From UHGV virus genome UHGV-0349822: DNA of 37,380 bases. The stretch is one strand, 5' to 3'. The notes under the pieces are model-generated. The model was given only the letters and a program-made list of their open reading frames with translations, had not been told where the DNA came from and searched no databases. Below, piece after piece: positions 186-17,185 of the stretch (position 1 is its first letter; the number at the start of each line of letters is the position of its first letter). The DNA comes from a virus. A program made the position numbers and the translations under genes.

Positions 186-717
186 TATCGCGTCCTCAAC
201 AATGAATTTTGTGATGCGGTGCCTGGTGCCTCCAGGTGACGTTAACCAGTTAACAATTAACGCCGGATACAGAGAATCCACCCATAACACTGTTTTTGGT
301 TTTAACTGTTCCGCGTGCGCTCAGCCGCATTCACCACATCACAAAATTCACTTTAAAAAGGGCGGCAGAGCAGTCACGGAGTAAAACTGATACCGCCAAA
401 CGTCACCAGAAAATTGATAACAGAGGGCGTTGCAGCGGGGTTGTCACTTAAGCGTATGGTCAACCTGACAACCCGGTGTCCTCAATGGGGGAAGGAATAA
501 CCCCGCCATACTTACCGCCGCGCCATTTCGCGGATTGCCACAACCGGAAGCGCACGGTCGACGAAAATTTAACGACAGGCTATCTATGAACCAGCTACCT
601 CGCTGTGCGCTTTCGCGTTATGGTCTGACTTTTCAGGGAAATATCCTTTCAGTAAACTGTCAGTGCCGGATGCTCACCCGTGTCCGGCGCACGCACTCCA
701 CCTCACCTGTGAATAAA

Positions 718-5479: not shown

Positions 5480-5490
5480 TGGATTTGCCC

Positions 5491-6396
5491 CTATATTTCC
5501 AGACACCTGTTATCACTTAACCCATTACTGGCCTGCTGCCGCAGATATTCCCGTGGCGAGCGATAACCCAGTGCACTATGCGGATGCCATTCGTTATAAT
5601 GCTCGAACGCCTCTGCAAGGTTCTTTGCTGCCGTTAACCCGTCTGGTTTAGGCATGATACTGATGTAGTCACGCTTTATCGTTTTCACGAAGCTCTCTGC
5701 TATGCCGTTACTCTCCGGACTCCGCACCGCCGTGTTCTTCGGTTCAAGCCCCAACATCCGGGCAAACTGCCGTGTTTCATTAGCCCGGTAGCATGAACCA
5801 TTATCCGTCAGCCACTCTACTGGAGACGCCGGAAGCTCGTTGCCGAAGCGGCGTTCCACCGCTCCCAGCATGACGTCCTGTACTGTTTCACTGTCGAAGC
5901 CGCCCGTAGTGACTGCCCAGTGCAGTGCCTCACGGTCACAGCAGTCCAGCGCGAACGTGACTCGCAGTTTTTCTCCGTTATCACAGCGGAACTCGAACCC
6001 GTCAGAGCACCATCGTTGATTGCTTTCTTTCACGGCCACTTTGCCAGTATGTGCCCGTTTCGATGGCGGTACAGCGGTTTTTCGCTCAAGCAACAGCGCA
6101 TTCTGTCGCATGATCCGGTAAACACGTTTGGCATTGATCGCAGGCATACCATCAAGTTCGGCCTGTCTGCGAAGCAGCGCCCATACCCGACGATAACCAT
6201 ACGTGGGCAGCTCTCCGATAACATGGTGTATACGGAGAAGCACATCCGTATCATCTGAGTGACGGCTGCGGCGACCATCTTTCCAGTCATCGGTTCGTCT
6301 GAGAATTACGTGCAACTGCGCACGCGACACCCGGAGACAACGGCTGACTAAGCTTACTCCCCATCCCCGGGCAATAAGGGCGCGTGCGCTATCCAC
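5491..6396 (-). CDS. insD: IS2 transposase OrfB (InsD), DDE domain
   Basis: 301-aa ORF in track; recognised as the IS2 OrfB sequence. Confidence 0.9.
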
Positions 6397-6719
6397 TTTT
6401 TTGCACGCCCGTATTCAACGGCTTCTTTAAGGAGTTCATTTTCCATCGTTTTTTTGCCGAGCAGGCGCTGGAGTTCTTTAATCTGCTTCATGGCAGCAGC
6501 AAGTTCAGAGGCAGGAACGACCTGCTCTCCTGCGGCCACAGCAGTAAGACTTCCCTCCTGGTATTGCTTGCGCCAGAGAAATAACTGGCTGGCTGCCACA
6601 CCGTGTTGCCGGGCAACAAGGGAGACCGTCATTCCCGGTTCAAAACTCTGCTGAACAATAGCGATCTTTTCCTGTGTAGTACGCCGTCTGCGTTTCTCCG
6701 GTCCTAAGACATCAATCAT
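6354..6719 (-). CDS. insC: IS2 OrfA (InsC), HTH DNA-binding transposase component
   Basis: Track ORF 6354-6764 trimmed to the [13 protein letters not shown]... start (121 aa); overlaps insD as in the IS2 OrfA/OrfB frameshift arrangement. Confidence 0.9.
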
Positions 6720-6810
6720 CTGCTCTCCAATGACTAGTCTAAAAACTAGTATTAAGACTATCACTTATTTAAGTGATATTGGTTGTCTGGAGATTCAGGG
6801 GGCCAGTCTA

Positions 6811-6815
6811 GAAAA
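6811..6815. repeat. IS2 target-site duplication (GAAAA), copy 2
   Basis: Identical to 5475-5479, directly abutting the other IS2 end. Confidence 0.8.
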
Positions 6816-7034
6816 TCCACCAGCATCCGGAAACCTGATTACAGATTCCCAGATAAGGCAATGAGCTACCTGGCGCAGAACGGGCTGATAAGTATGGGGA
6901 ATGTTTTACGATGAATATTTAGACTAAAGAGTTTGTAACGCTATGTAAGTGATTTTTTCTGGTTTAGATATTTATATATCCGGCCAAATTGAGGTGTGTT
7001 TAAATGTAATTGCACATTGATTGTAGGAGGAATA

Positions 7035-7214
7035 ATGAAAAACGCATTGCAGTTTTTGTTTGTTGCGTTCTGGTTGTTCGTATCATGTATGCCCATCATC
7101 TTCACAGCAAGGTATATGGAAAAAGTTGATGTTTTGATATTAATATTTGGATATATAAATGCCCTTTTTTTAGGGGTGTTCATGGCGGTCATGTGCATTG
7201 AATACTGGCGGTAA
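7035..7214 (+). CDS. small two-helix hydrophobic membrane protein (about 60 aa)
   Basis: In-frame ATG at 7035 with AGGAGG Shine-Dalgarno (track ORF 6996-7214); MKNALQFLFVAFWLFVSCMPIIF...LILIFGYINALFLGVFMAVMCIEYWR; AT-rich locus. Confidence 0.4.
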   Translation: MKNALQFLFVAFWLFVSCMPIIFTARYMEKVDVLILIFGYINALFLGVFMAVMCIEYWR

Positions 7215-7473
7215 ATACAGCGAACGCCATTGGTTTAGTTGGATATTTACTGTGCCGGACAAAAACGGTTTGCGGGGAAATCTTAGTTAAGTAGAATGAC
7301 TGCGGGTGCTTGAGGCTATCTGTCTCAGGCATGAACACCAAAAGGCAGATAGAGAAAAGCCCCAGTTAACATTACGCGTCCTGCAAGACGCTTAACATTA
7401 ATCTGAGGCCATATCTATGCTCTACACACGTAGGTTAGCCTCTTACGTGCCGAAAGGCAAGGAGAAGCAGGCT

Positions 7474-7629
7474 ATGAAGCAGCAAAAGGCGATGCTAATC
7501 GCCCTGATCGTCATCTGTTTAACCGTCATAGTGACGGCACTGGTAACGAGGAAAGACCTCTGCGAGGTACGAATCCGAACCGGCCAGACGGAGGTCGCTG
7601 TCTTCACAGCTTACGAACCTGAGGAGTAA
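7474..7629 (+). CDS. hok: Hok/Gef-family membrane toxin (51 aa)
   Basis: MKQQKAMLIALIVICLTVIVTALVTRKDLCEVRIRTGQTEVAVFTAYEPEE shows the Hok signature (TM helix, conserved C...EVR...EVA.F.AYE); AAGGAGAAG Shine-Dalgarno; in-frame upstream ATG at 7417. Confidence 0.8.
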   Translation: MKQQKAMLIALIVICLTVIVTALVTRKDLCEVRIRTGQTEVAVFTAYEPEE

Positions 7630-7696
7630 GAGACCAGGCGGGGGAGAATCCCTCGCCACCTCTGATGTGTCAGGCATCCTCAACGCACCCGCACTT

Positions 7697-7723
7697 AACC
7701 CGCTTCGGCGGGTTTTGTTTTTT
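7697..7723 (+). terminator. intrinsic terminator downstream of hok
   Basis: AACCCGC-TTCG-GCGGGTT hairpin followed by TTGTTTTTT. Confidence 0.55.
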
Positions 7724-7795
7724 CCTAGCATTCTGGTTTACAATTCGCACACCAGCCTGAACAACTGGCACCTGCTGCGCCAGCAGAGACAACCG

Positions 7796-8074
7796 ATGGC
7801 GCACGATACCAAATTACACAATTCTGATAATTCAGCCGTCTTTGCCAGCAGGCGCGGACGGTGTTTTCACGCATTCAAATCTGACTGGTACCAGCATCCC
7901 CCATGCACTGAAGAACAGGCCGAATGGCTCATTCAGTGTTACCGCAGGCGCGGATACGAGGTTAAAAAAGCCCTTAGCCTCGACTACCGTCACTGGATAA
8001 TCTCCGTCAGGCTTCCTTACTCTGAACGCCCACCGCGTCCGTCCCGCACATTCCAGCAACGCATCTGGAGGTAA
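7796..8074 (+). CDS. hypothetical protein (about 92 aa)
   Basis: In-frame ATG at 7796 within track ORF 7667-8074; the upstream part of that ORF overlaps the hok terminator. Confidence 0.35.
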   Translation: MAHDTKLHNSDNSAVFASRRGRCFHAFKSDWYQHPPCTEEQAEWLIQCYRRRGYEVKKALSLDYRHWIISVRLPYSERPPRPSRTFQQRIWR

Positions 8075-8075
8075 C

Positions 8076-9125
8076 GTGCGGGTATTACTTCGACCTGTTC
8101 TGGTACCGGAACTCGGGCTGGTGATCGTTAAGCCGGGCCGTGAATCCATGCCGGTATTCCACAATACCCGGGTACTGGTGGAGCCGGAACCGAAAAGCAT
8201 GCGTAATCTGCCGTCCGGGGTCGTTCCTGCCGTTCGCCAGCCGCTGGCGGAGGATAAATCATTACTGCCATTTTTCAGCGACGAACGAGTGATTCGTGCT
8301 GCTGGTGGCGCTGGCGCATTGTCTGACTGGTTACTGCGCCATGTTAAATCCTGCCAGTGGCCACACGGCGATTATCACCACAGTGAAACCGTCATTCACC
8401 GTTATGGTACCGGCGCAATGGTGTTGTGCTGGCACTGCGACAACCAGTTGCGTGACCAGACCTCCGAATCACTTGAGCAACTTGCTCACCAAAACCTGTC
8501 AGCATGGATGATTGACGTCATTCGTCACGCAATGAATGGCACACAGGAGCGTGAATTATCGCTGGCTGAATTATCCTGCTGGGCGGCCTGCAATCAGGTG
8601 GTGGATGCACTACCTGAGGCAGTAGCGCGTCGTTCGCTGGGATTACCAGCGGAAAAAATCCGCTCCGTATACCGTGAGAGTGACATCGTACCGGGAGAAC
8701 AGACAGCCATCAGCATACTGAAGCAGCGCACAAAAAATATTGCGCTGCCACTTCACGTCCACCAGCAACAAAATCCACCACAGGAAAAGACGGTGGTCAG
8801 CATTGCCGTTGATCCGGAGTCTCCGGAATCCTTCATGAAACGACCTAAACGTCGCCGCTGGGTTAACGAGAAATACACGCGCTGGGTGAAGACACAGCCG
8901 TGTGCGTGTTGTGGTAAGCCAGCCGACGATCCCCATCACCTGATTGGTCATGGTCAGGGCGGAATGGGGACAAAATCTCACGATATTTTCACGCTACCGC
9001 TGTGTCGGGAGCATCACAACGAGTTTCATGCGAATCCTCTGGCGTTCGAAGAAAAGCATGGTTCTCAGGTTGATTTAATTTTTCGTTTTCTTGATCACGC
9101 CTTTGCAACTGGCGTGCTTGGGTAA
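8076..9125 (+). CDS. DUF968-type prophage protein (YdfU-like) with C-terminal HNH-like Cys/His cluster
   Basis: 349 aa; GTG start after GGAGG; C-terminal CACCGK...PHHLIGHG...CREHHNEFH motif; sits just upstream of rusA and the Q-like gene, as in Qin/DLP12-type prophages. Confidence 0.65.
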   Translation: MRVLLRPVLVPELGLVIVKPGRESMPVFHNTRVLVEPEPKSMRNLPSGVVPAVRQPLAEDKSLLPFFSDERVIRAAGGAGALSDWLLRHVKSCQWPHGDYHHSETVIHRYGTGAMVLCWHCDNQLRDQTSESLEQLAHQNLSAWMIDVIRHAMNGTQERELSLAELSCWAACNQVVDALPEAVARRSLGLPAEKIRSVYRESDIVPGEQTAISILKQRTKNIALPLHVHQQQNPPQEKTVVSIAVDPESPESFMKRPKRRRWVNEKYTRWVKTQPCACCGKPADDPHHLIGHGQGGMGTKSHDIFTLPLCREHHNEFHANPLAFEEKHGSQVDLIFRFLDHAFATGVLG

Positions 9126-11843: not shown

Positions 11844-11919
11844 GGCCCTTTAGCTCAGTGGTGAGAGCGAGCGACTCATAATCGCCAGGTCGCTGGTTCA
11901 AATCCAGCAAGGGCCACCA
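11844..11919 (+). tRNA. tRNA with CAU anticodon (likely Ile2/ileZ-like, AUA-decoding after lysidine modification; could be Met)
   Basis: 76 nt; acceptor stem GGCCCTT/AAGGGCC, anticodon loop CUCAUAA, T-arm GGTTCAAATCC, 3' CCA. Confidence 0.8.
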
Positions 11920-12019: not shown

Positions 12020-12096
12020 GCGTTGTTAGCTCAGCCGGACAGAGCAATTGCCTTCTAAGCAATCGGTTACTGGTTCGAATCCAGTACAGCGCGCCA
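12020..12096 (+). tRNA. tRNA-Arg (anticodon UCU, AGA-decoding)
   Basis: 77 nt; acceptor GCGTTGT/ACAGCGC, anticodon loop CUUCUAA, T-arm GGTTCGAATCC, 3' CCA. Confidence 0.8.
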
Positions 12097-12560: not shown

Positions 12561-12951
12561 ATACATATCTGGATTATCACCGGTTACGGTAAAAAGTGAT
12601 TGCTTACTGTTTTTGTGAATGGCATTGCAGCAGCCGGATAATGTCAGTGCTGGCTGACGGTGTGCTGGTGGCGGGTGTGGTGGTTGCTGCTTTCCCGTTG
12701 CTGAAAAAGAAAACGCCAGACTGTTAGCCGGGTATCAGTTAGCGGGAGAAATTTTTAAATACTTCACAATTCAGGCGGTTGACTGTTGTCTGGTTTGCGG
12801 GGAGTTTGTTAAAAGAAACTGGCATGGTGAATCCCCCTGTGCGGAGGGGCAATCAGCGAGTAGGTATATGGGATAATCGCGGATTCAGGTGCTGGTACTG
12901 AATTCACCGGGAGGCACCCGGCACCATGCAATGGCACATAGCGCCACTCTC

Positions 12952-12980
12952 CAGCCCCTCTCCGGAGGGGCTGTTTATAT
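12952..12980 (+). terminator. intrinsic terminator
   Basis: 9-bp stem CAGCCCCTC/GAGGGGCTG with TCCG loop, followed by TTTATATTGATTTT. Confidence 0.45.
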
Positions 12981-13007
12981 TGATTTTGTCAGATGTGAGT
13001 AAACTCC

Positions 13008-16730: not shown

Positions 16731-17185
16731 GCAGAGTCGCAGCGATTATTTATACTCTGGTTATCTGCACCATCGTCTGCCTGTCGTGGGCGGTCAATCA
16801 TTACCGTGATAACGCCATCGCCTACAAAGAGCAGCGCGATAACAAGGCCAGTGAACTGGAGAAGGCGAACGCCACCATCGCTGACATGCGGAAGCGTCAA
16901 CGTGATGTAGCAGAACTCGACGCAAGATACACAAAGGAGCTTGCTGATGCTAACGCGACTATCGAAAGTCTCCGTGCTGATGTTTCTGCTGGGCGTAAGC
17001 GCCTGCAAGTCGCCGCCACCTGTGCAAAGTCAACGACCGGAGCCAGCGGCATGGGCGATGGAGAAAGCCCAGGACTTACAGCAGATGCTGAACTCAATTA
17101 TTACCGTCTCCGAAGTGGAATCGACAAGATAACCGCGCAGGTCAACTACCTGCAGGAGTACATCAGGACGCAGTGCTTAAAATAA
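16727..17185 (+). CDS. Rz: i-spanin Rz
   Basis: GTG start overlapping the endolysin stop; [33 protein letters not shown]... closely parallels lambda Rz. Confidence 0.8.
16941..17132 (+). CDS. Rz1: o-spanin Rz1 (lipoprotein) embedded in the +1 frame of Rz
   Basis: Signal peptide with lipobox (LLGVSAC) then a proline-rich stretch ([13 protein letters not shown]); fully nested in Rz. Confidence 0.7.

What the first reader, a model, noticed from the sequence alone, without database searches (positions are those of the whole stretch)
6996..7726. Hok-family toxin with in-frame N-terminal extension, next to a small two-helix membrane protein, with no obvious antisense partner
The 51-aa Hok ORF (7474-7629) has a strong Shine-Dalgarno sequence and a clean terminator, but an in-frame ATG at 7417 could give a 70-aa extended form instead of the usual out-of-frame mok overlap. 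Hok toxins are normally held in check by a Sok antisense RNA and mRNA fold-back elements; I could not identify a convincing antisense promoter or terminator by eye. An unrelated small hydrophobic protein gene (7035-7214) lies just upstream. Whether this locus is an active type I toxin-antitoxin module or a relF/hokD-like relic is open.
Basis: partly seen in the sequence, partly recalled or inferred. Interest (0 to 1): 0.5.

Follow-up and report, generated by a model that had tools for sequence, protein, structure and literature searches.

The report
Ordinary prophage hok/sok toxin-antitoxin locus
This is a complete, ordinary copy of the well-known hok/sok RNA-controlled toxin-antitoxin module carried by an E. 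coli lambdoid prophage; its antisense antitoxin gene is present, and its "in-frame extension" is the normal leader frame for this branch of the family.

Summary

The locus is not atypical.
- The window matches E. coli chromosomes at 100% identity, where the gene is annotated hokD.
- The full 441-nt locus occurs in 4004 of 5426 complete E. coli genomes.
- It is 93% identical to hokW-sokW of Sakai prophage 5, an experimentally proven type I toxin-antitoxin system.
- The Rfam hok-leader model (RF01794) scores 117 bits, the same as K-12 hokC.

All regulatory parts map:
- hok promoter;
- tac (5' translational activator element) and fbi (3' fold-back element), paired in the predicted fold, with compensatory changes across species;
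- ucb and dcb (complementary boxes);
- mok (leader reading frame);
- a 77-nt Sok gene on the minus strand (7425 to 7349). Its promoter, TTGCCT-17-TAACCT, is identical to the sokW promoter region.

In-frame mok is the majority state: 32 of 47 loci. It is annotated as such for K-12 mokC and for Sp5 orf74.

Unlike K-12 hokD/relF, which lost its leader, this copy is intact.

The upstream small ORF has no family and shows no sign of purifying selection, so its coding status is doubtful.

Verdict: already known, low interest.

The parts
7270..7297 (+). Putative hok/mok mRNA promoter: -35 TTGCGG (7270-7275), 16-nt spacer, -10 TAGAAT (7292-7297). Transcription start about 7304.
   Evidence: Read from the sequence. 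The -10 lies at a conserved position in homologues: TATAAT in hokC, TATATT in Photorhabdus. The Sp5 hokW locus has the same hexamers. Inferred; not mapped experimentally here.
7304..7724 (+). Full-length hok mRNA, about 420 nt, running from the tac 5' end to the terminator U-tract.
   Evidence: The Rfam RF01794 model starts at 7304. Terminator. The whole-transcript fold has dG -169.6 kcal/mol, z = -6.8, with the 5' and 3' ends paired.
7302..7315 (+). tac (translational activator element), GCGGGTGCTTGAGG, at the 5' end of the mRNA.
   Evidence: Identical to the K-12 hokC and Sp5 hokW leaders. Pairs with fbi in the MFE and centroid folds. Duplex dG -27.3 kcal/mol.
7357..7363 (+). ucb (upstream complementary box), the anti-SD of mok, AAGCCCC. 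It pairs with the mok SD in the closed form and with tac in the Rfam consensus (open) form.
   Evidence: GCC/GGC pairing with 7404-7406 in the full-length fold. tac-ucb pairs in the Rfam consensus alignment are near-invariant across 41 loci (helix 1).
7364..7404 (+). Sok-target hairpin of the mRNA. Its complement forms the terminator hairpin of Sok. It is 18 nt longer than in hokC.
   Evidence: Rfam alignment. Four base pairs show compensatory AU<->GC changes across 41 loci (helix 2).
7405..7408 (+). mok Shine-Dalgarno sequence (GAGG), 8 nt upstream of the mok ATG.
   Evidence: Sequence. Invariant GAGG column in alignment A5. Sequestered in both predicted folds.
7417..7629 (+). mok leader reading frame. 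Here it is in frame with hok, giving a 70-aa ORF made of 19 leader codons plus Hok.
   Evidence: ORF list. The ATG aligns with the mokC ATG of K-12 and with Sp5 orf74. Frame survey of 47 loci.
7438..7442 (+). dcb (downstream complementary box), GCCTC, pairing partner of the mok SD in the Rfam consensus structure.
   Evidence: Rfam alignment. The five SD/dcb pairs are invariant in 38-41 of 41 loci (helix 3).
7349..7425 (-). Predicted Sok antitoxin RNA, about 77 nt: a 15-nt single-stranded 5' tail covering the mok start codon, a long hairpin, and a UUUUCUCU tail.
   Evidence: Positional homology to the annotated K-12 sokC, 16952..17010. Fold dG -31.9 kcal/mol, z = -4.8. The Sp5 sokW RNA, 71 nt complementary to the hokW leader, was detected by Northern blot (PMC8621323). 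The ends are inferred, not mapped.
7432..7460 (-). sok promoter: -35 TTGCCT (7460 to 7455), 17-nt spacer, -10 TAACCT (7437 to 7432).
   Evidence: The window and Sp5 are identical across this stretch. The hokW-paper probe YO-597 (CCTTGCCTTTCGGCACGTAAGAGGCTAACC) is the exact reverse complement of window 7434-7463. The 'pro-less' construct of that paper altered the -10 element and abolished protection (PMC8621323). From the primer sequences I infer that the altered hexamer is the one homologous to this TAACCT. It aligns with the R1-type TTGCGC / TATCCT.
7459..7464 (+). hok Shine-Dalgarno sequence, AAGGAG. It overlaps the sok -35 hexamer on the other strand.
   Evidence: Sequence. CAAGGAG is nearly invariant in A5.
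7474..7629 (+). hok toxin gene, 51 aa, MKQQKAMLIALIVICLTVIVTALVTRKDLCEVRIRTGQTEVAVFTAYEPEE.
   Evidence: Pfam PF01848, E 2.9e-23. PHROG 251 'MokW-like host killing', E 7.8e-33. Annotated hokD, WP_000813254.1, in identical E. coli chromosomes. The coding DNA differs from K-12 hokD by one synonymous base.
7637..7657 (+). GC-rich 3' hairpin (GGCGGGGGAGAATCCCTCGCC), the expected protective 3' end of the processed, translatable mRNA.
   Evidence: Formed in both folds. Conserved GGCGGGG...CCCCGCC block in all homologues. The role is inferred from the R1 model (PMC9841398).
7678..7692 (+). fbi (fold-back inhibitory element), CCTCAACGCACCCGC, complementary to tac with one bulged C.
   Evidence: Pairs with tac in the MFE fold. 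The duplex is preserved at about 45-49 nt after the stop codon in most of the 38 non-redundant loci; in the six hokC-type loci (one of them IS186-disrupted) the best duplex maps elsewhere. Compensatory changes: GGGTGC/GCACCC <-> GGGCGC/GCGCCC; GAGG/CCTC <-> GAGA/TCTC; GAAG/CTTC.
7697..7724 (+). Intrinsic terminator of the hok mRNA: AACCCGC-TTCG-GCGGGTT followed by a T-run.
   Evidence: Terminator scan. The same terminator is present at K-12 hokD and in phage Rac.
7035..7214 (+). Neighbouring 59-aa hydrophobic ORF in an AT-rich stretch (30-39% GC). It is not part of the toxin-antitoxin module and its coding status is doubtful.
   Evidence: No Pfam, PHROG or NCBIfam hit. Homologues occur only in E. 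coli and Shigella at 58-100% identity (most above 90%), all unnamed. The DNA is in 1570 of 5426 genomes and mostly unannotated. Frameshift variants occur at the T7 run. All 4 substitutions against the Shigella copy are nonsynonymous.

Best explanation
The region 7270-7724 is an intact hok/sok-type type I toxin-antitoxin module of the hokD/hokW subtype. It sits in the early-right (nin/Q) region of an E. coli lambdoid prophage.

Proposed mechanism, with the basis of each step:
1. A constitutive promoter makes a stable mRNA of about 420 nt. Its 5' tac pairs with the 3' fbi, and the mok Shine-Dalgarno sequence is held by ucb, so neither mok nor hok is translated. This structure is predicted here and supported by covariation.
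2. Slow 3' trimming removes fbi and allows refolding into a translatable form. This is inferred from plasmid R1.
3. The short-lived Sok RNA, about 77 nt, is made from its own promoter on the opposite strand. It covers the mok ribosome-binding site and start codon and triggers RNase III cleavage. The gene and promoter are located here by identity to sokW. The activity is inferred from the sokW experiments.
4. When Sok decays (prophage induction, loss of the element or transcription arrest), ribosomes translate mok across the hok start region. This permits synthesis of the 51-aa Hok, which inserts in the inner membrane and depolarises or lyses the cell. This step is inferred.

The ATG at 7417 is the mok start. 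Being in frame with hok is a common neutral variant, because only mok translation, not the Mok peptide, matters. By analogy with hokW-sokW, the likely role is to hasten lysis and phage release on induction and/or to stabilise the prophage.
For: Family membership:
- Rfam RF01794 (hok leader) covers 7304-7479 on the + strand at 117.1 bits (gathering score 59), E 3e-26.
- The same model scores 118.3 on K-12 hokC, 113.5 on Sp5 hokW, 111.1 on phage Rac and 87.2 on an R1-type plasmid locus. It gives no hit on the truncated K-12 hokD locus.
- Pfam HOK_GEF, E 2.9e-23.

Identity and distribution:
- 100% identity to E. coli chromosomes that annotate hokD.
- The full locus is at least 80% covered in 4004 of 5426 genomes.
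- 93.2% identity over 411 nt to VT2-Sakai/Sp5. Alignment A2 shows the sok promoter stretch to be identical.

Experiments on the Sp5 homologue (PMC8621323):
- HokW is toxic.
- sokW expressed from its own promoter protects, and mutation of its -10 abolishes protection.
- Protection partly requires RNase III and Hfq.
- sokW RNA disappears after mitomycin C.
- Deletion of the locus halves phage release.

RNA structure:
- tac and fbi are paired in the MFE and centroid folds, z = -6.8, with three covarying positions across genera.
- Consensus leader structure on 41 loci: 74.8% of cells paired against 36-42% for slid controls. There are 79 double-sided changes against 44.8 expected, reached by 0 of 500 shuffles.
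- The Sok fold has z = -4.8.

mok frame:
- K-12 mokC shares its stop codon with hokC, so it is in frame.
- Frame survey of 47 loci: 32 in frame, 9 at +1, 2 in the third frame.
- In R1, translation of mok up to the hok start is what is required, not the Mok product (PMC9841398).
Against: - Nothing was measured for this particular copy. The Sok ends, promoter activity, 3' processing and toxicity are all inferred by homology.
- The sok -10 (TAACCT) matches only 3 of 6 consensus positions and failed the generic promoter scan.
- The MFE fold of a 3'-truncated mRNA moves tac into a local hairpin but keeps the mok SD paired with ucb. Thermodynamic prediction alone therefore does not reproduce the open, translatable form.
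[quoted passage not shown] An intact-looking chromosomal locus may therefore be weakly active or inactive.
- The window and Sp5 differ at 6 of the 77 Sok positions and in the last residues of Hok.
Confidence: 0.9

Rival explanations
1. The locus looks intact but is functionally silent: a decaying chromosomal hok copy that is never activated, as K-12 hokA, hokC, hokD and hokE have been described.
For: Chromosomal hokA, hokB and hokC loci with all elements reportedly failed to mediate post-segregational killing or rifampicin activation (summarised in bioRxiv 10.1101/2025.08.07.668861). Degenerate copies exist among close relatives: L006 has a mutated tac, L044 and L048 have frameshifted hok, and L007, L028 and L046 lack the leader. 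An IS2 sits 660 nt upstream.
Against: Every element is present and scores like the functional loci. The sok promoter stretch is identical, and the tac/fbi pair matches, in the experimentally active hokW-sokW. The Hok protein is identical to K-12 HokD/RelF, a hok-like inner-membrane toxin (PMC3598666, citing Gerdes et al. 1986). The IS2 lies outside the transcription unit. R1 hok is toxic from a single chromosomal copy when Sok is removed (PMC9841398).
Confidence: 0.08
2. The real gene product is the 70-aa in-frame protein, an N-terminally extended Hok isoform with its own properties, rather than a leader frame that merely enables translation of the 51-aa Hok.
For: The 70-aa ORF is open and has its own SD. 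It is the form annotated in VT2-Sakai (orf74) and, as MokC, in K-12. When mok is in frame, ribosomes starting at 7417 must produce a Hok-containing polypeptide.
Against: Among loci with near-identical Hok the same ATG is at -57, -58 or -56. All three frames occur, and in the third frame mok stops at the hok AUGA. The 19-codon extension is therefore not conserved as protein. Its sequence is instead constrained by the sok promoter and RNA pairing. hok keeps its own strong SD and ATG. PHROG and Pfam profiles cover only the 51-aa part. In R1 the Mok product is dispensable (PMC9841398).
Confidence: 0.05
3. The upstream hydrophobic ORF (7035-7214) and hok form a two-gene membrane module, for example a second toxin or an immunity partner.
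For: The ORF lies 260 nt upstream of hok on the same strand. It has a strong AGGAGG SD and two predicted hydrophobic segments. The pair is also adjacent in a Shigella flexneri locus (L008), in a degenerate E. coli copy (L006) and in three phage records.
Against: - The ORF region is in only 1570 genomes, against 4004 for the hok locus.
- It is absent from Sp5, phage Rac, hokC and all non-Escherichia/Shigella loci.
- It matches no protein family.
- Frameshifted versions are common.
- All 4 substitutions against the Shigella copy are nonsynonymous.
- It lies outside the hok transcript, whose promoter is downstream of it.
Confidence: 0.03

Closest known systems
hokW-sokW of Sakai prophage 5 (VT2-Sakai), E. 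coli O157:H7 (Takada et al. 2021, PMC8621323)
   Same: - 93.2% DNA identity over 411 nt.
- Same hok promoter hexamers, tac, extended Sok hairpin, sok promoter stretch (identical) and fbi.
- Same in-frame 70-aa mok/hok ORF, annotated there as orf74.
- Same kind of host element, a lambdoid prophage.
   Different: - Six substitutions in the mok SD-to-ATG spacer, the first mok codons and the hairpin loop, that is, in the Sok 5' tail and loop.
- The Hok C-terminus is ...FTAYEPEE here and ...FVDYESEK in HokW.
- The sequence after fbi differs: the window has the hokD-type terminator, Sp5 does not.
- The flanking genes differ.
hokC/mokC/sokC (gef) of E. coli K-12
   Same: - The leader aligns along its whole length and has the same Rfam score, 118 versus 117 bits.
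- mokC is in frame with hokC at -57, exactly as here.
- The annotated sokC position maps onto window 7425 to 7349.
   Different: - The hokC Sok-target hairpin is 18 nt shorter.
- The sok -35 is TTGACC.
- In K-12 an IS186 copy lies about 20 bp downstream of hokC, and homology to intact hokC loci ends there, before fbi.
- The hokC locus is chromosomal rather than prophage-borne.
- HokC is 82% identical to this Hok.
hokD (relF) of the K-12 Qin prophage
   Same: - Same Hok protein; the coding DNA differs by one synonymous base.
- Same 3' UTR, fbi and terminator.
- Same type of prophage neighbourhood, followed by a DUF968 gene and Q.
   Different: In K-12, homology stops about 14 nt upstream of the hokD ATG. 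The promoter, tac, ucb, mok and sok are replaced by relBE, and there is no Rfam leader hit. There hokD is co-transcribed with relBE (PMC3598666). The window copy is the complete, ancestral-type locus.
hok/sok (parB) of plasmid R1, the family paradigm
   Same: - Same order and spacing of elements: mok AUG at mRNA position 114 here versus 116 in R1, and hok AUG at 171 versus 174.
- tac GGNNGCTTGAGGCT, GCCCC ucb, GAGG mok SD, GCCTCTTAC dcb region and CAAGGAGAAG hok SD are all alignable (PMC9841398).
- The mechanism is presumed identical.
   Different: - HokW, the close relative of this Hok, is 44% identical to R1 Hok (PMC8621323).
- In R1 the mok offset is 58 nt, so mok is out of frame (derived from positions in PMC9841398). 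Here it is 57, in frame. However, an IncFII plasmid whose Hok is identical to R1 Hok also has the in-frame -57 ATG.
- The sok promoter is TTGCGC/TATCCT in the R1 type and TTGCCT/TAACCT here.
- R1 is a plasmid and the system acts in plasmid maintenance; this locus is in a prophage.

Membership tests
[quoted passage not shown] | A roughly 50-aa Hok/Gef membrane toxin (Pfam PF01848) with a conserved hydrophobic helix and the TRKxLCE motif. | tested here: met
   PF01848, E 2.9e-23, 81.6 bits against a cut-off of 22. PHROG 251, E 7.8e-33. The coding DNA differs from K-12 hokD by one synonymous base, so the protein is identical.
[quoted passage not shown] | A mok leader frame starting about 57-58 nt upstream of hok, with its own SD, and reading across the hok translation-initiation region. 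| tested here: met
   ATG at 7417 with GAGG at 7405-7408; the frame is open through 7474. It aligns with the mokC, Sp5 orf74 and R1-type mok ATGs.
[quoted passage not shown] | mok out of frame with hok. This is a feature of the R1 paradigm, not of the family. | tested here: not met
   The offset here is 57, in frame. This does not exclude membership. The curated K-12 member mokC is in frame. In 47 loci, 32 are in frame, 9 are +1 and 2 are in the third frame. In R1 only translation of mok is required, not the peptide (PMC9841398).
[quoted passage not shown] | A structured mRNA leader with the tac/ucb stem, the Sok-target hairpin and the mok-SD/dcb stem (Rfam RF01794). | tested here: met
   117.1 bits against a gathering score of 59, full model length. 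On 41 loci, 74.8% of cells are paired against 36-42% when slid, and covariation is 0.126 against 0.092 in shuffles, reached by 0 of 500.
[quoted passage not shown] | Long-range 5'-3' fold-back (tac-fbi) closing the full-length mRNA. | tested here: met
   A 14-bp duplex, dG -27.3 kcal/mol, formed in the MFE and centroid folds of the 421-nt transcript, z = -6.8. Compensatory changes occur at three positions across Escherichia, Kluyvera, Photorhabdus, Pantoea and Citrobacter.
[quoted passage not shown] | A Sok antisense RNA gene with its own promoter and terminator, complementary to the mok translation-initiation region. | tested here: met
   Minus strand 7425 to 7349. Promoter TTGCCT-17-TAACCT, in a stretch identical to the sokW promoter region (primers). 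Positional homology to the annotated sokC. Hairpin plus U-tail, z = -4.8. Expression itself was not tested.
[quoted passage not shown] | Hok is toxic, and Sok neutralises it post-transcriptionally in an RNase III-dependent manner. | not testable with these tools
   Shown for the 93%-identical hokW-sokW (PMC8621323). K-12 RelF/HokD, which has the identical protein, is described as a hok-like toxin targeting the inner membrane (PMC3598666, citing Gerdes et al. 1986).
[quoted passage not shown] | Slow 3' processing of the full-length mRNA to a translatable truncated form. | not testable with these tools
   The sequence prerequisites are present: fbi lies downstream of a GC-rich protective hairpin at 7637-7657. 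Removing fbi in silico relocates tac to a local hairpin but does not open the mok SD.

The most novel reading that the evidence does not exclude
In the in-frame arrangement, ribosomes starting at mok necessarily make a 70-aa Mok-Hok fusion. This longer isoform might have its own activity, for example different membrane targeting, toxicity or timing.

The single-base indel that switches mok between frames lies inside the sok -35 hexamer (TTGCCT versus TTGACC). It might therefore couple antitoxin promoter strength to the toxin isoform produced. Nothing here excludes this, and no paper read here addresses it.
Probability: 0.07. Interest if true: 0.35.

Novelty: already known. Interest (0 to 1): 0.1.

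Why it matters
It matters little for discovery. The locus is a textbook type I toxin-antitoxin module that is already annotated (hokD) and is characterised in a 93%-identical prophage copy (hokW-sokW).

The useful outcomes are practical:
- The antitoxin RNA and mok are routinely left unannotated in genome records. Only 'hokD' is annotated at this place, so a reader of raw sequence or of annotation will wrongly see an orphan toxin.
- The K-12 reference copy of hokD is the truncated exception. Most E. coli genomes (4004 of 5426) carry the complete form.
- The mok frame is free to vary, with all three frames found, which fits the view that only its translation matters.

Tried and rejected
- **Generic promoter and terminator scan.** It found no minus-strand promoter and no Sok terminator. 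I rejected this as evidence of absence. The sok -10 (TAACCT) matches 3 of 6 positions, below the tool's threshold, and the Sok hairpin has bulges. Homology to sokW and sokC locates both.
- **Small ORF 7035-7214.** Pfam, PHROGs and NCBIfam gave nothing. A search of 5.8 billion proteins found only unnamed E. coli and Shigella near-identical copies.
- **Downstream 92-aa ORF (7796-8074).** I tested whether it is Rem of K-12 Qin. BLASTP found no similarity. It matches PHROG 1212, of unknown function.
- **tRNA-like hairpin around the TadA editing motif (TACG at 7612-7615).** A local fold is no better than shuffles, z = +0.86, so I make no structural claim.
- **Fold of the 3'-truncated mRNA.** I hoped to see the open tac/ucb form. 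Only relocation of tac to a metastable-type local hairpin was predicted, so this is not used as support for activation.
- **Relic hypothesis (relF-like).** Rejected because the leader is complete here and absent in K-12 hokD.
- **Pedersen & Gerdes 1999 and Poulsen 1991.** These papers are not in the searchable library. Statements about them come second-hand from papers that cite them.
Full report
**What is in the sequence**

- A 51-aa ORF at 7474-7629, preceded by AAGGAG (7459-7464).
- An in-frame ATG at 7417, which gives a 70-aa ORF.
- A stem-loop with a T-run at 7697-7724.
- A hydrophobic 59-aa ORF at 7035-7214 behind an AGGAGG.

The 51-aa product matches Pfam HOK_GEF (E 2.9e-23) and PHROG 251 'MokW-like host killing' (E 7.8e-33).

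**Origin and frequency**

The stretch 6811-8100 is 100% identical to E. coli chromosomes such as strain ST648. There the gene is annotated hokD. It lies in a lambdoid prophage between replication-region genes and DUF968, RusA and Q. An IS3-family element (IS2) sits just upstream.

The 441-nt locus 7290-7730 is at least 80% covered in 4004 of 5426 complete E. coli genomes, with a median of two places per genome. It also occurs in 102 phage records. One of these is VT2-Sakai, that is Sakai prophage 5, at 93.2% identity.

**The regulatory RNA elements are all present**

Rfam family RF01794 is named 'sok' but models the hok mRNA leader on the sense strand. It matches 7304-7479 over its full length at 117.1 bits, against a gathering score of 59. 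The same model gives:

| Locus | Bits |
|---|---|
| K-12 hokC | 118.3 |
| Sp5 hokW | 113.5 |
| Phage Rac | 111.1 |
| R1-type IncFII locus | 87.2 |
| K-12 hokD locus | no hit |

Alignment with K-12 explains the missing hit. At K-12 hokD, homology to the window starts only about 14 nt before the hok ATG, because relBE occupies the place of the leader. The K-12 hokC leader, in contrast, aligns with the window from tac to the hok start.

The window therefore carries the complete form of the locus, and K-12 hokD/relF is a truncated remnant. That remnant is known to be co-transcribed with relBE (PMC3598666).

**tac and fbi**

The 5' end GCGGGTGCTTGAGG (7302-7315) is complementary to CCTCAACGCACCCGC (7678-7692) with one bulged C.

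Folding the predicted full-length transcript 7304-7724 pairs these two ends in both the minimum-energy and centroid structures. The energy is -169.6 kcal/mol and z = -6.8 against shuffles. In that fold the mok Shine-Dalgarno GAGG (7405-7408) is held by GCCCC (7359-7363). This is the 'closed' form described for R1 (PMC9841398).

I collected 53 related loci from one-genome-per-species contigs. In most of the 38 non-redundant loci that have a tac, the best 5'-3' duplex lies 45-49 nt after the stop codon. In the six hokC-type loci (one of them IS186-disrupted) it maps elsewhere. The duplex shows compensatory changes:
- GGGTGC/GCACCC in Escherichia and Kluyvera becomes GGGCGC/GCGCCC in Photorhabdus and Pantoea.
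- GAGG/CCTC becomes GAGA/TCTC.
- One Citrobacter locus has GAAG/CTTC.

I mapped the Rfam consensus leader structure onto my own alignment of 41 leaders.
- 74.8% of cells are paired, against 36-42% when partners are slid.
- There are 79 double-sided changes, against 44.8 expected. No shuffle of 500 reached the observed value.
- Four AU<->GC switching pairs lie in the Sok-target hairpin.

**The antisense partner**

K-12 annotates sokC at 16952..17010, opposite the hokC leader and overlapping the first 9 nt of mokC. Transferring this through the alignment places Sok on the window's minus strand from about 7425 to about 7349.

That 77-nt RNA folds as a 15-nt free 5' tail, a long hairpin and a UUUUCUCU tail. 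The energy is -31.9 kcal/mol and z = -4.8. This is the classical Sok shape, and it covers the mok SD and start codon.

Upstream on the minus strand lie TTGCCT (7460 to 7455), 17 nt, and TAACCT (7437 to 7432).

The window and Sp5 are identical through this promoter stretch. The hokW mRNA probe of Takada et al. (YO-597, CCTTGCCTTTCGGCACGTAAGAGGCTAACC) is the exact reverse complement of window 7434-7463.

Takada et al. showed the following (PMC8621323):
- sokW expressed from its own promoter protects against HokW.
- Mutating the sokW -10 element removes protection, and sokW in trans partly restores it.
- RNase III and Hfq contribute to protection.
- Both RNAs are detected by Northern blot.

The generic promoter scan missed this promoter because its -10 matches only 3 of 6 consensus positions. 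That is why it was not visible by eye.

**The in-frame ATG**

The ATG at 7417 occupies the same alignment column as the mok start of K-12 mokC, Sp5 orf74, phage Rac mok and an R1-type locus.

In K-12, mokC (16751..16960) and hokC (16751..16903) share a stop codon. The curated MokC is therefore an in-frame 19-residue extension of HokC. VT2-Sakai annotates the 70-aa in-frame form as its 'gef homolog'.

Across 47 loci the results were:

| Position of the mok ATG | Loci |
|---|---|
| -57, in frame | 32 |
| -58, +1 frame, as in R1 and phage Rac | 9 |
| -56, third frame, terminating at the hok AUGA | 2 |
| No mok ATG (three lack the leader; one has ATA) | 4 |

Even an IncFII plasmid whose Hok is identical to R1 Hok has the in-frame -57 ATG. 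In R1 itself the offset is 58, from the positions given in PMC9841398.

That paper also confirms that translation of mok up to the hok start region is required, not the Mok peptide. Frame is therefore expected to drift, and the in-frame state is ordinary.

The frame switch between the hokW/hokD type and the Rac type is a single T inside the sok -35 hexamer, GG-CAAGG versus GGTCAAGG.

**How it most likely works**

The proposed sequence of events is:
1. Constitutive transcription gives a stable mRNA that is closed by tac-fbi and is translationally inert.
2. Slow 3' trimming and refolding follow.
3. Unstable Sok binds the mok initiation region, and RNase III cleaves the duplex.
4. When Sok falls, mok is translated. 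This opens the hok initiation site, and Hok kills or lyses the cell through the inner membrane.

Shown here: the presence, conservation and covariation of the elements, and the predicted closed fold. Inferred from R1 and hokW-sokW: processing, Sok turnover, RNase III action and toxicity.

In Sp5, mitomycin C removes sokW, HokW then appears about an hour before endolysin, and deleting the locus halves phage release (PMC8621323). The same role is the best guess here. Prophage stabilisation or phage exclusion are alternatives.

A caveat is that some intact chromosomal hok loci were reported not to mediate post-segregational killing (summarised in bioRxiv 10.1101/2025.08.07.668861).

**The neighbouring small ORF**

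ORF 7035-7214 lies in an AT-rich stretch of 30-39% GC.
- It has no hit in Pfam, PHROGs or NCBIfam.
- It has only unnamed E. coli and Shigella homologues, most above 90% identical.
- Its DNA is in 1570 of 5426 genomes and is usually unannotated. It is also in three phage records.
- Protein clusters with a shifted C-terminus at the T7 run are frequent.
- The four substitutions relative to a Shigella copy are all nonsynonymous, and a third copy is multiply frameshifted.

It lies upstream of the hok promoter and is absent from most hok loci. I see no link to the toxin-antitoxin module and regard its coding status as doubtful.

**Verdict**

This is a complete, common and already characterised type of hok/sok locus, and interest is low.

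Noticed in passing
window about 5480-6810 (right end read at 6754-6810; transposase ORF A on the minus strand at 6354-6764): An IS2 (IS3-family) element is inserted about 660 nt upstream of hok. It splits an upstream prophage ORF, which is annotated as a frameshifted or incomplete pseudogene in the identical ST648 record. It lies outside the hok transcription unit. The left boundary was not verified.
   Followed up: partly
window 7612-7615 (TACG; Tyr47 codon of Hok): The single Tyr near the Hok C-terminus is encoded by TAC within a TACG motif. This is the TadA A-to-I editing motif, reported to recode Tyr to Cys at the equivalent position (46 in the numbering of that paper) of hokC, hokD and hokE mRNAs (PMC5630033). 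A local fold gave no significant hairpin.
   Followed up: partly
window 7455-7460, and alignment A5 columns about 175-180: The one-base indel that toggles mok between in-frame (-57) and +1 (-58) lies inside the sok -35 hexamer: TTGCCT in the hokD/hokW type and TTGACC in the Rac, Kluyvera and hokC types. The hokC type regains -57 through a second one-base deletion near the sok -10. Two Escherichia species (L015, L017) have mok in the third frame, stopping at the hok AUGA.
   Followed up: partly
window 7160-7166 (T7 run inside ORF 7035-7214): Many database versions of the small ORF differ by a frameshift at this homopolymer, giving an unrelated C-terminus (...FFRGVHGGHVH). This could be real length variation or a sequencing error.
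   Followed up: partly
window 360-411 (-), 11844-11916 (+), 12020-12093 (+), 12793-12982 (+): Other Rfam hits in the window are a DicF sRNA (76.7 bits), two tRNA genes (annotated tRNA-Ile and tRNA-Arg in the identical record) and STnc100 (132 bits). These are typical of Qin, Rac and Stx-like lambdoid prophages.
   Followed up: no
window 7796-8074 (+): A 92-aa ORF sits between hok and the DUF968 gene, where K-12 Qin has rem. It has no detectable similarity to K-12 Rem. It matches PHROG 1212, of unknown function.
   Followed up: partly
L018 (Acinetobacter idrijaensis, 275-bp contig), L023 (Xanthomonas pisi, 431-bp contig), L056 (Candidatus Scatousia MAG), H72 (Actinobacillus phage vB_Apl-pPE4): Hok sequences 96-100% identical to E. 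coli HokD turn up in assemblies of unrelated taxa. Those in genome assemblies are on tiny or short contigs, which looks like E. coli DNA contamination or mislabelled records rather than true hosts.
   Followed up: no
L002 (K-12 hokC locus) and L016: In K-12-type strains the hokC locus ends in IS186 about 20 bp after the stop codon, and homology to intact hokC loci ends there, before fbi. Intact hokC loci of other Escherichia species keep a tac-complementary fbi.
   Followed up: partly
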